Below are positions 37,086-38,271 of a stretch of 64,000 nucleotides of DNA, one piece after another. Every line of letters begins with the position of its first letter. Position 1 is the first letter of the stretch. The notes under the pieces are model-generated. The model was given only the letters and a program-made list of their open reading frames with translations. It did not search any database and was not told the origin of the DNA. Source of the DNA: Eledone cirrhosa (Eukaryota); the NCBI GenBank assembly GCA_964016885.1, contig OZ024741.1, positions 305,908,001 through 305,972,000 on the forward strand. The letters are read 5' to 3'. A program made the position numbers and the translations under genes.

Positions 37086-37442
37086 GTGGGTCGATTTGAA
37101 AGATGTTTGTGATGTCACAATCGTAGCGACCTGTGCAACGTGCACACACAATTTGGTCAAATTCAGTTGGTAATTGTAAAAGCCTTAAGTATGCAAAATT
37201 GTACACAGACACACACACATCATCGCTTTTATATATATAAAGATAAATATATATATATATTTTTTTCGTGCAATGGCCATACTCGATAACAAGGGGGCAA
37301 CCGTCATCATATATATATATACAATATTTGTTTCACCGAACATTTATTATAATGCTCGGTGTGTTTGTAAACAAACATCCCGAATTAAGCCGTACAGTGT
37401 CTAGCAACCATTGTTACTCATTTGTTCAACACTGACAAAGGA

Positions 37443-37485
37443 ACGGTGTACTAGTTTCAAGCTTATTAGCTCTCGTCAGCAACGT
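37443..37485 (-). ncRNA. Hammerhead family D, intact core
   Basis: Reverse complement: acgttg-CTGACGA-gagct aata agctt-GAAA-ctag-TA-caccgt. Confidence 0.85.
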
Positions 37486-37585
37486 ATACACTGTACGGCT
37501 TAATTCGGGATGTTTGTTTACAAACACACCGAGCATTATAATAATTATTCGGTGAATCCATACGTACATATATATATATGTGTGC

Positions 37586-37646
<61 letters not shown>

Positions 37647-37869
37647 CATACTACTGTACGTCGGTATACATATATGTATGTACGTATACATACTTATATT
37701 TAAGTAACAGCCGCACTAAGAGTGAGAAATGAAATTTCGTTTCATTTTTTCCGTTTTTCGGTACCCCGGCCGATTAACTCACTCGATATGCAAATTAGGC
37801 CGCTCAGCCGTTAATATGCATAAGGAAAGTATATACTTTCAGACGTTCAACCATCTGGCAGGAAGGTAT

Positions 37870-37912
37870 ACGTTGCTGACTATAGCTAATAAGCTTGAAA
37901 CTAGTACAGCGT
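37870..37912 (+). ncRNA. Hammerhead family D (G8>U)
   Basis: acgttg-CTGACTA-tagctaataagctt-GAAA-ctag-TA-cagcgt. Confidence 0.7.
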
Positions 37913-38053
37913 TCCTTTGTCAGTGTTGAACAAATGAGCAATGATGGTTGCTAGACACTGTACGGCTTAATTCGGGATGTTTGTTTACAAACACACCGAG
38001 CATTATAATAAATGTTCGGTGAATACATACGTACATATATATATGCGTGCATG

Positions 38054-38110
<57 letters not shown>

Positions 38111-38271
38111 ACATATATATATATATACCTACATATATATATATATACATAAATATATATATATATGTATATATATACCTACACATATATATTTACTTAT
38201 ATTTAAGTAACAGCCGTACTAAGAGTGGGAAAAGTAATTTCGTTTCATTTTTTCCGTTTATATATATATAC

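What the first reader, a model, noticed from the sequence alone, without database searches (positions are those of the whole stretch)
37320..38260. Complete ~467-bp circularly permuted hammerhead unit with stem I covariation: candidate circular-RNA retrozyme
Seen: the array starts mid-unit (37491), repeats at 37958, has no credible ORF and is preceded by an inverted copy with an intact core. Stem I is ACGGTG/CATCGT at 7.5 kb but ACGTTG/CAGCGT at 37870 (G-U swapped to U-G), and core position N7 varies (A, U, C) as the hammerhead consensus allows. Established: metazoan non-LTR retrozymes are short tandem hammerhead repeats that produce circular RNAs. Inference: cephalopod equivalent mobilised by Penelope enzymes.
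Basis: partly seen in the sequence, partly recalled or inferred. Interest (0 to 1): 0.75.

Follow-up and report, generated by a model that had tools for sequence, protein, structure and literature searches.

The report
Decayed copy of abundant hammerhead retrozyme
This is a decayed, two-armed copy of a very abundant non-coding repeat with a hammerhead ribozyme motif; the repeat was likely pasted around this animal genome by Penelope-type transposon enzymes, probably copying a small RNA circle, but this particular copy has a broken ribozyme core and would not itself make a circle.

Summary
The repeat and the hammerhead motif are real, but the flagged 'complete unit' has U at core position G8 (37881), and it is the only forward hammerhead at this locus, so this copy is predicted unable to release a monomer. 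The family unit is 420-430 nt; 467 reflects an expanded TA tract. The family has 23,622 exact intact cores genome-wide. Stem I covariation holds across subfamilies. Arms end at two fixed sites about 59 nt apart next to (TA)n, and 21 of 26 head-to-head insertions use one site per arm (p=0.0014), the 'tail' footprint of Penelope-like elements. Copies read through the cleavage site (98 of 100), and young arrays are near-identical, which fits a circular or an uncleaved multimer template. No coding element with this repeat as terminal repeat was found in a limited search. No RNA run was listed, so expression and cleavage are untested. It is a new member of the known animal non-LTR retrozymes. The scan already noted this footprint on other DNA of this genome, including probably this family (e1-8665316).

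The parts
37332..37489 (-). Inverted (left) arm: partial unit, 5'-truncated, outer end cut short before the TA tract
   Evidence: blastn to the unit 91-93%; sequence
37443..37485 (-). Hammerhead of the inverted arm: core CUGACGA..GAAA intact, one stem I mismatch, U-to-G at the base of stem II
37490..38258 (+). Forward (right) arm: about 1.6 units, ends at the family's fixed end site 2 followed by (TA)n
37561..37690 (+). Internal TA-rich palindromic tract, expanded here (source of the 467-nt period)
37695..37755 (+). About 59-nt segment between the two fixed end sites (equivalent of the Penelope 'tail'); holds a hairpin at 37726-37747
37788..37795 (+). ATGCAAAT octamer, kept in the subfamilies; promoter role is inference only
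   Evidence: (160 of 193 units keep the overlapping 8-mer)
37855..37923 (+). Type I hammerhead with extended stem I; core at 37876-37882 has G8U (37881); U-U closes stem II; 2-bp palindromic helix III; predicted cleavage after 37906
7185..9430 (+). Array of the related subfamily (about 21-25% diverged outside the TA tract), hammerheads at 7517-7559 and 9126-9168, units split by long TA expansions
40470..40536 (+). Second copy of the arm's 3' end, part of a local duplication that also carries a LINE end
   Evidence: same variants; adjacent LINE 875 of 892 identical

Best explanation
The locus is a decayed two-armed insertion of a high-copy non-coding hammerhead repeat (a non-LTR retrozyme) that was likely inserted by a Penelope-type reverse transcriptase-endonuclease, probably copying a ligated RNA circle. 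Shown from sequence: 420-430-nt unit, type I hammerhead layout, fixed arm ends at two sites about 59 nt apart beside (TA)n, variable 5' ends, head-to-head arms, read-through of the cleavage site, and the G8U change at this locus. Inferred: tandem arrays are transcribed; two neighbouring hammerheads pair through the palindromic helix III and cut after GUA; a host ligase closes the monomer; a Penelope enzyme dimer cuts both strands of a TA repeat and primes reverse transcription at site 1 from one DNA end and at site 2 from the other, running round the template; the two cDNAs are joined at their truncated ends. Long arrays then grow further by unequal crossover. This locus is a product, not a source.
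For: 23,622 exact 33-nt cores, reversed control 0. Stem I pair: G-U 7, A-U 6, U-G 4, C-G 1 in 18 hand-picked copies, none unpaired; per locus 97 of 108 typed copies pair. Core unchanged except N7 between subfamilies 21-25% apart. Of 141 arm ends found at the two sites, 26 form head-to-head pairs and 21 of these use one site each (p=0.0014). This matches two internal RT start sites and the one-sided 'tail' of Penelope-like elements (PMC11167929; PMC8557442). 98 of 100 consecutive copies on C1 continue upstream across the cleavage site, so cleaved linear monomers were not the usual template. Six of 29 loci examined have units differing by only 0-0.8%, four of them over both strands; 19 of 46 multi-unit loci carry a rare variant in every unit that covers it. 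Monomer folds as a 69% paired circle, z -8.9; z -6.2 without the TA tract. Unit-length same-strand neighbours: 29 of the first 100 listed cores (counted by hand) against 0 of 100 for a coding Penelope family.
Against: No RNA evidence at all. An uncleaved transcript of a homogeneous array predicts the same read-through, and hammerhead cleavage was not needed for Penelope insertion in vitro (PMC11167929). Median within-locus divergence (4.25%) exceeds distance to the nearest other sampled locus (2.6%), and only 10 of 46 loci are tighter within. L269 (2 variants) and L106 (1) share variants in register between arms, as a linear multimer template would give. The window's two hammerhead-bearing units share no rare variant, and one locus on C4 has the same two rare hammerhead changes in the same order, though it differs at another marker. 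The isolated hammerhead fold is not significant (z -1 to -1.5). Only 67 of 120 last units reached one of the two end landmarks in a crude scan. The window's left arm does not end at site 1. No partner element found. Loci were chosen by similarity or motif, not at random.
Confidence: 0.62

Rival explanations
1. Same Penelope-type mobilisation, but the template is an uncleaved linear multimer read from genomic arrays; the hammerhead cuts rarely or late, and no circle is needed. Homogeneous young arrays come from homogeneous source arrays.
For: Read-through of the cleavage site; in-register variants at L269 and L106; cleavage dispensable in vitro and no reads ending at the site in the anole element (PMC11167929); 8 of 9 Xenopus dimers did not cleave (10.64898/2026.07.22.740005); the helix III here is only 2 bp and stem II starts with U-U.
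Against: Locus-private variants fixed in all units and both arms (L063/L257, L106, L119) need a step that multiplies one unit; young two-armed loci show almost no in-register unit-specific variants; core and stems are kept across subfamilies.
Confidence: 0.27
2. The unit is the terminal repeat (pLTR) of a coding Penelope-like element not yet found; most copies are its 5'-truncated remnants.
For: Same end geometry as Penelope-like elements; a coding family in this genome carries a hammerhead of the same build (U-U closing stem II, palindromic UA loop III); Xenopus retrozymes resemble pLTRs.
Against: Upstream of the hammerhead the copies continue into another unit, not an ORF; no recurrent 5' junction among 76 flanks and no Penelope frame at a shared junction in 223 (overlapping) stretches; no similarity to the repeats of 50 GIY-YIG loci except three nested copies; arrays of up to 25 units.
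Confidence: 0.07
3. A satellite or minisatellite spread by DNA-level processes only, the hammerhead being a relic.
For: Higher-order periodicity in long arrays (C3 array; L129-130; L276; L266 explained by unequal crossover).
Against: Dispersed short insertions with fixed 3' ends, 5' truncation, paired inverted arms and a 9-nt target duplication at L264 are marks of target-primed reverse transcription.
Confidence: 0.04

Closest known systems
Animal non-LTR retrozymes (coral, mussel, axolotl; Cervera and de la Pena 2020, PMC7229834: passages, section 14 and Discussion read)
   Same: Non-coding tandem repeats with a type I hammerhead per unit, GC 36-38%, highly self-paired predicted monomer, short palindromic helix III as in axolotl and newt, Penelope elements in the same genome.
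   Different: Unit 420-490 nt, a little above the 170-400 nt reported; internal TA tract; U-U at the base of stem II; two-armed insertions with two fixed ends are not described in the parts read; RNA not shown here.
Retrozymes as non-autonomous Penelope derivatives (Li, Clavereau, Pollet 2026, 10.64898/2026.07.22.740005: parts 1-3 of 5 read)
   Same: Proposes Penelope mobilisation; monomers, dimers and multimers; units of 51-972 bp.
   Different: Argues from co-occurrence and pLTR similarity in vertebrates; here the support is the insertion footprint, and no homologous pLTR was found.
Penelope-like elements (Frangieh 2024, PMC11167929: parts 1-2 of 4; Craig 2021, PMC8557442: passages and section 11; Cervera 2014, PMC4209133: parts 1-2 of 4)
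   Same: 5' truncation, inverted arm, two internal start sites giving a one-sided tail, AT-rich or (TA)n targets, hammerhead in the repeat.
   Different: No ORF; tail about 59 nt rather than 30-40 (coding families in this genome show about 50-60 nt, read by eye); many unit-length tandems.

Membership tests
Type I hammerhead ribozyme | Core CUGANGA..GAAA..UH with three helices (family) | tested here: met
   23,622 exact cores; helices paired in 95% of cells; U10.1-U11.1 is a reported natural variant (PMC3088659 passage)
Type I hammerhead ribozyme | Intact core in the flagged unit | tested here: not met
   G8U at 37881; single G8 change abolishes cleavage in a Penelope hammerhead (G8C, PMC11167929)
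Type I hammerhead ribozyme | Self-cleavage | not testable with these tools
   needs an assay
Non-LTR retrozyme | Tandem units of a few hundred nt, one hammerhead each | tested here: met
Non-LTR retrozyme | Non-coding, GC below 50% | tested here: met
   the 66-aa ORF was not searched against Pfam
Non-LTR retrozyme | At least two consecutive intact hammerheads at the locus ('active' criterion of Li et al.) | tested here: not met
   this locus has one forward hammerhead, broken; met at other loci such as L257, L258, L271
Non-LTR retrozyme | Expressed as linear and circular monomer RNA | not testable with these tools
   no RNA holder listed
Non-LTR retrozyme | Highly self-paired monomer | tested here: met
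Penelope-like element (autonomous) | RT plus GIY-YIG ORF joined to the repeat | tested here: not met
   limited sample of more than 10,000 GIY-YIG candidates
Penelope-mobilised element | Fixed 3' ends at two sites, 5' truncation, inverted arm, AT-rich target | tested here: met
Penelope-mobilised element | Sequence shared with the pLTR or tail of a partner element | tested here: inconclusive
   no blastn similarity in 50 loci; only architectural likeness of the hammerhead to one coding family

The most novel reading that the evidence does not exclude
Tens of thousands of insertions record a Penelope enzyme dimer priming at two fixed sites on one small ribozyme-made RNA circle and rolling round it from both ends of a double-strand cut: genomic proof of the proposed retrozyme life cycle, in an element that no longer shares sequence with its partner and may carry its own octamer promoter.
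Probability: 0.45. Interest if true: 0.7.

Novelty: new member of a known kind. Interest (0 to 1): 0.42.

Why it matters
How animal retrozymes get into DNA has been proposed (circle plus Penelope RT) but, in the papers read, not shown. This family supplies exact predicted priming sites, young intact arrays to clone, and thousands of copies for statistics, so the step becomes testable. With at least 23,600 intact cores, roughly 10 Mb or more by inference, it is also a sizeable part of this genome that Rfam does not flag. The flagged locus itself is an ordinary dead copy.

Tried and rejected
RNA expression: no RNA holder listed; contigs of four runs of unknown kind show presence only and flat depth across the cleavage site; not used as evidence. 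RNA-editing scars (lead from e1-8803865, another family): not seen here; A>G vs T>C was 6 vs 8, 33 vs 34 and 15 vs 26, and 24 vs 20 matches on C1-C2 at a mirrored site of stem II (counted by hand). Pile-up of 5' ends at the cleavage site: 2 of 100, no clear excess. Window and C4 copy from one mixed dimer: they share two rare changes but differ at a marker fixed in each; left open. Chimeric retrozyme-Penelope insertion at L264: rejected, it is an insertion into a Penelope ORF with a 9-nt target duplication. Dimeric circle at L266: rejected, unequal crossover explains it. The 7.5-kb array as terminal repeat of the Penelope element at 3.9-7.0 kb: rejected, that element has its own different hammerhead and ends before a TA run. 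Divergent relatives sharing helix III: the 100 listed of 298 were nearly all family mutants. Rfam miRNA hits are TA-repeat artefacts. Literature searches for this family in cephalopods listed none; supplements of the cited papers were not read and may list such motifs.

Full report
Observation. The window holds an inverted segment (37332-37489), a unit from 37491 and a partial repeat from 37958 to 38258, followed by (TA)n. The inverted arm has an intact core but a stem I mismatch and no outer stem. Rfam finds nothing at gathering score and a weak HH9 hit on the inverted arm. The 467-nt period includes a TA expansion; monomers elsewhere are 420-430 nt, and about 484 nt in the subfamily seen at 7.5 kb.

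Family. The genome (3.0 Gb) has 23,622 exact matches to the 33-nt intact core, control 0, and 27,988 to a 24-mer just downstream of the cleavage site. The G8U form has 50 matches on all three stem I backgrounds, so it is mostly recurrent decay after insertion. Subfamilies differ by 8-25% outside the TA tract, while the core differs only at N7. One stem I pair is G-U, A-U, U-G or C-G in 18 hand-picked copies, and pairs in 97 of 108 typed loci; this is a few inherited events, not many independent ones. Helix III is 2 bp with a palindromic UA loop, the layout described as needing a dimer (PMC4209133). Stem II starts with U-U, a reported natural variant (PMC3088659). The monomer folds as a 67-71% paired circle (z -8.9; -6.2 without the TA tract), while the hammerhead alone is not significant against shuffles.

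Insertion footprint. Copies have variable 5' ends, frequent head-to-head arms and 3' ends beside (TA)n. Ends cluster at two sites about 59 nt apart; a crude landmark scan put 67 of 120 last units at them. I had seen both end positions; an earlier scan note (e1-8665316) prompted the pairing test. Of 141 ends found by motif at the two sites, 26 form head-to-head pairs, and 21 of these use one site each (p=0.0014). Penelope-like elements start reverse transcription at two internal sites, cut both strands at AT-rich DNA, and leave a tail at one end (PMC11167929; PMC8557442). The window's right arm ends at site 2; its left arm is cut short before site 1, next to a LINE 3' end.

Template. Of 100 consecutive matches just 3' of the cleavage site on C1, 76 have an exact core upstream and 22 of the other 24 also continue upstream; 2 start within 5 nt of the site. 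Cleaved linear monomers were therefore not the usual template. Six of 29 loci have units within 0-0.8% of each other, and 19 of 46 multi-unit loci have a rare variant in all covering units, as one unit copied repeatedly would give. Against this, most sampled loci are older and more diverged within than to their nearest neighbour, two loci share variants in register between arms, and an uncleaved transcript of a homogeneous array explains the same data. Long arrays (25 units on C3; L129-130, L266, L276) show higher-order structure from unequal crossover. No strand bias for A>G was found. No RNA run was listed.

Partner. Thirty GIY-YIG loci and 20 long-frame Penelope loci show no similarity to the unit except three nested copies. 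Penelope fragments lie near the unit in 36 of 223 overlapping stretches, never at a shared 5' junction. One coding family (L160, L164, L165, L168, L172, L175; 5,674 exact cores) has a hammerhead of the same build and two-armed insertions but no unit-length tandems among the first 100 listed. It is a candidate by likeness only.

Comparison. The family fits animal non-LTR retrozymes (PMC7229834; 10.64898/2026.07.22.740005) in every feature testable from DNA; RNA and cleavage are untested. Those papers propose Penelope mobilisation and a circular template; the parts read do not describe the two-site, two-arm footprint for retrozymes. Searches for a cephalopod case listed none; supplements were not read. 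The taxon was not tested here.

Verdict. The flagged locus is a dead, moderately old copy (about 1.5-2.5% from the sample majority) of a large retrozyme family. New member of a known kind; the footprint is of specialist interest and has been noted by this scan on other DNA of this genome. Interest 0.42.

Noticed in passing
window 3905-7046: Two-armed Penelope-like element with frameshifted RT, GIY-YIG (6247-6648, Pfam PF01541 E 6e-5) and its own, different hammerhead at about 6850-6895; its two ends are about 55 nt apart.
   Followed up: partly
window 12960-13015: A third type I hammerhead family with a long stem II, unrelated to the unit.
   Followed up: no
window 23294-24363: More fragments of the same Penelope-like family in inverted arrangement.
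   Followed up: no
window 38190-42770: Local duplication carrying the unit's 3' end and an RTE-like LINE with a PHD finger (628-aa frame at 38662-40551, minus strand).
   Followed up: partly
window 37321-37334: About 14 nt at the left junction match the end region of a Penelope repeat seen beside L013; may be chance.
   Followed up: partly
L164, L166, L169, L132, L168: At least four other hammerhead families in this genome also close stem II with U-U rather than G-C.
   Followed up: no
window 37443-37912 and G000:C4:83814241-83814697: The same two rare hammerhead changes occur in the same order at both loci, which otherwise differ at a fixed marker; unexplained.
   Followed up: partly
L264: A unit array inserted in a Penelope ORF with a Hydra-type CxCx5C linker, 9-nt target duplication, later partly duplicated in inverted form.
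   Followed up: yes
window 15591-16073 and 18434-18862 (minus); 53939-56845 (plus): Cysteine-patterned frames that look like chitin-binding exons (recalled pattern, not searched), and a 968-aa acidic, serine-rich open frame.
   Followed up: no
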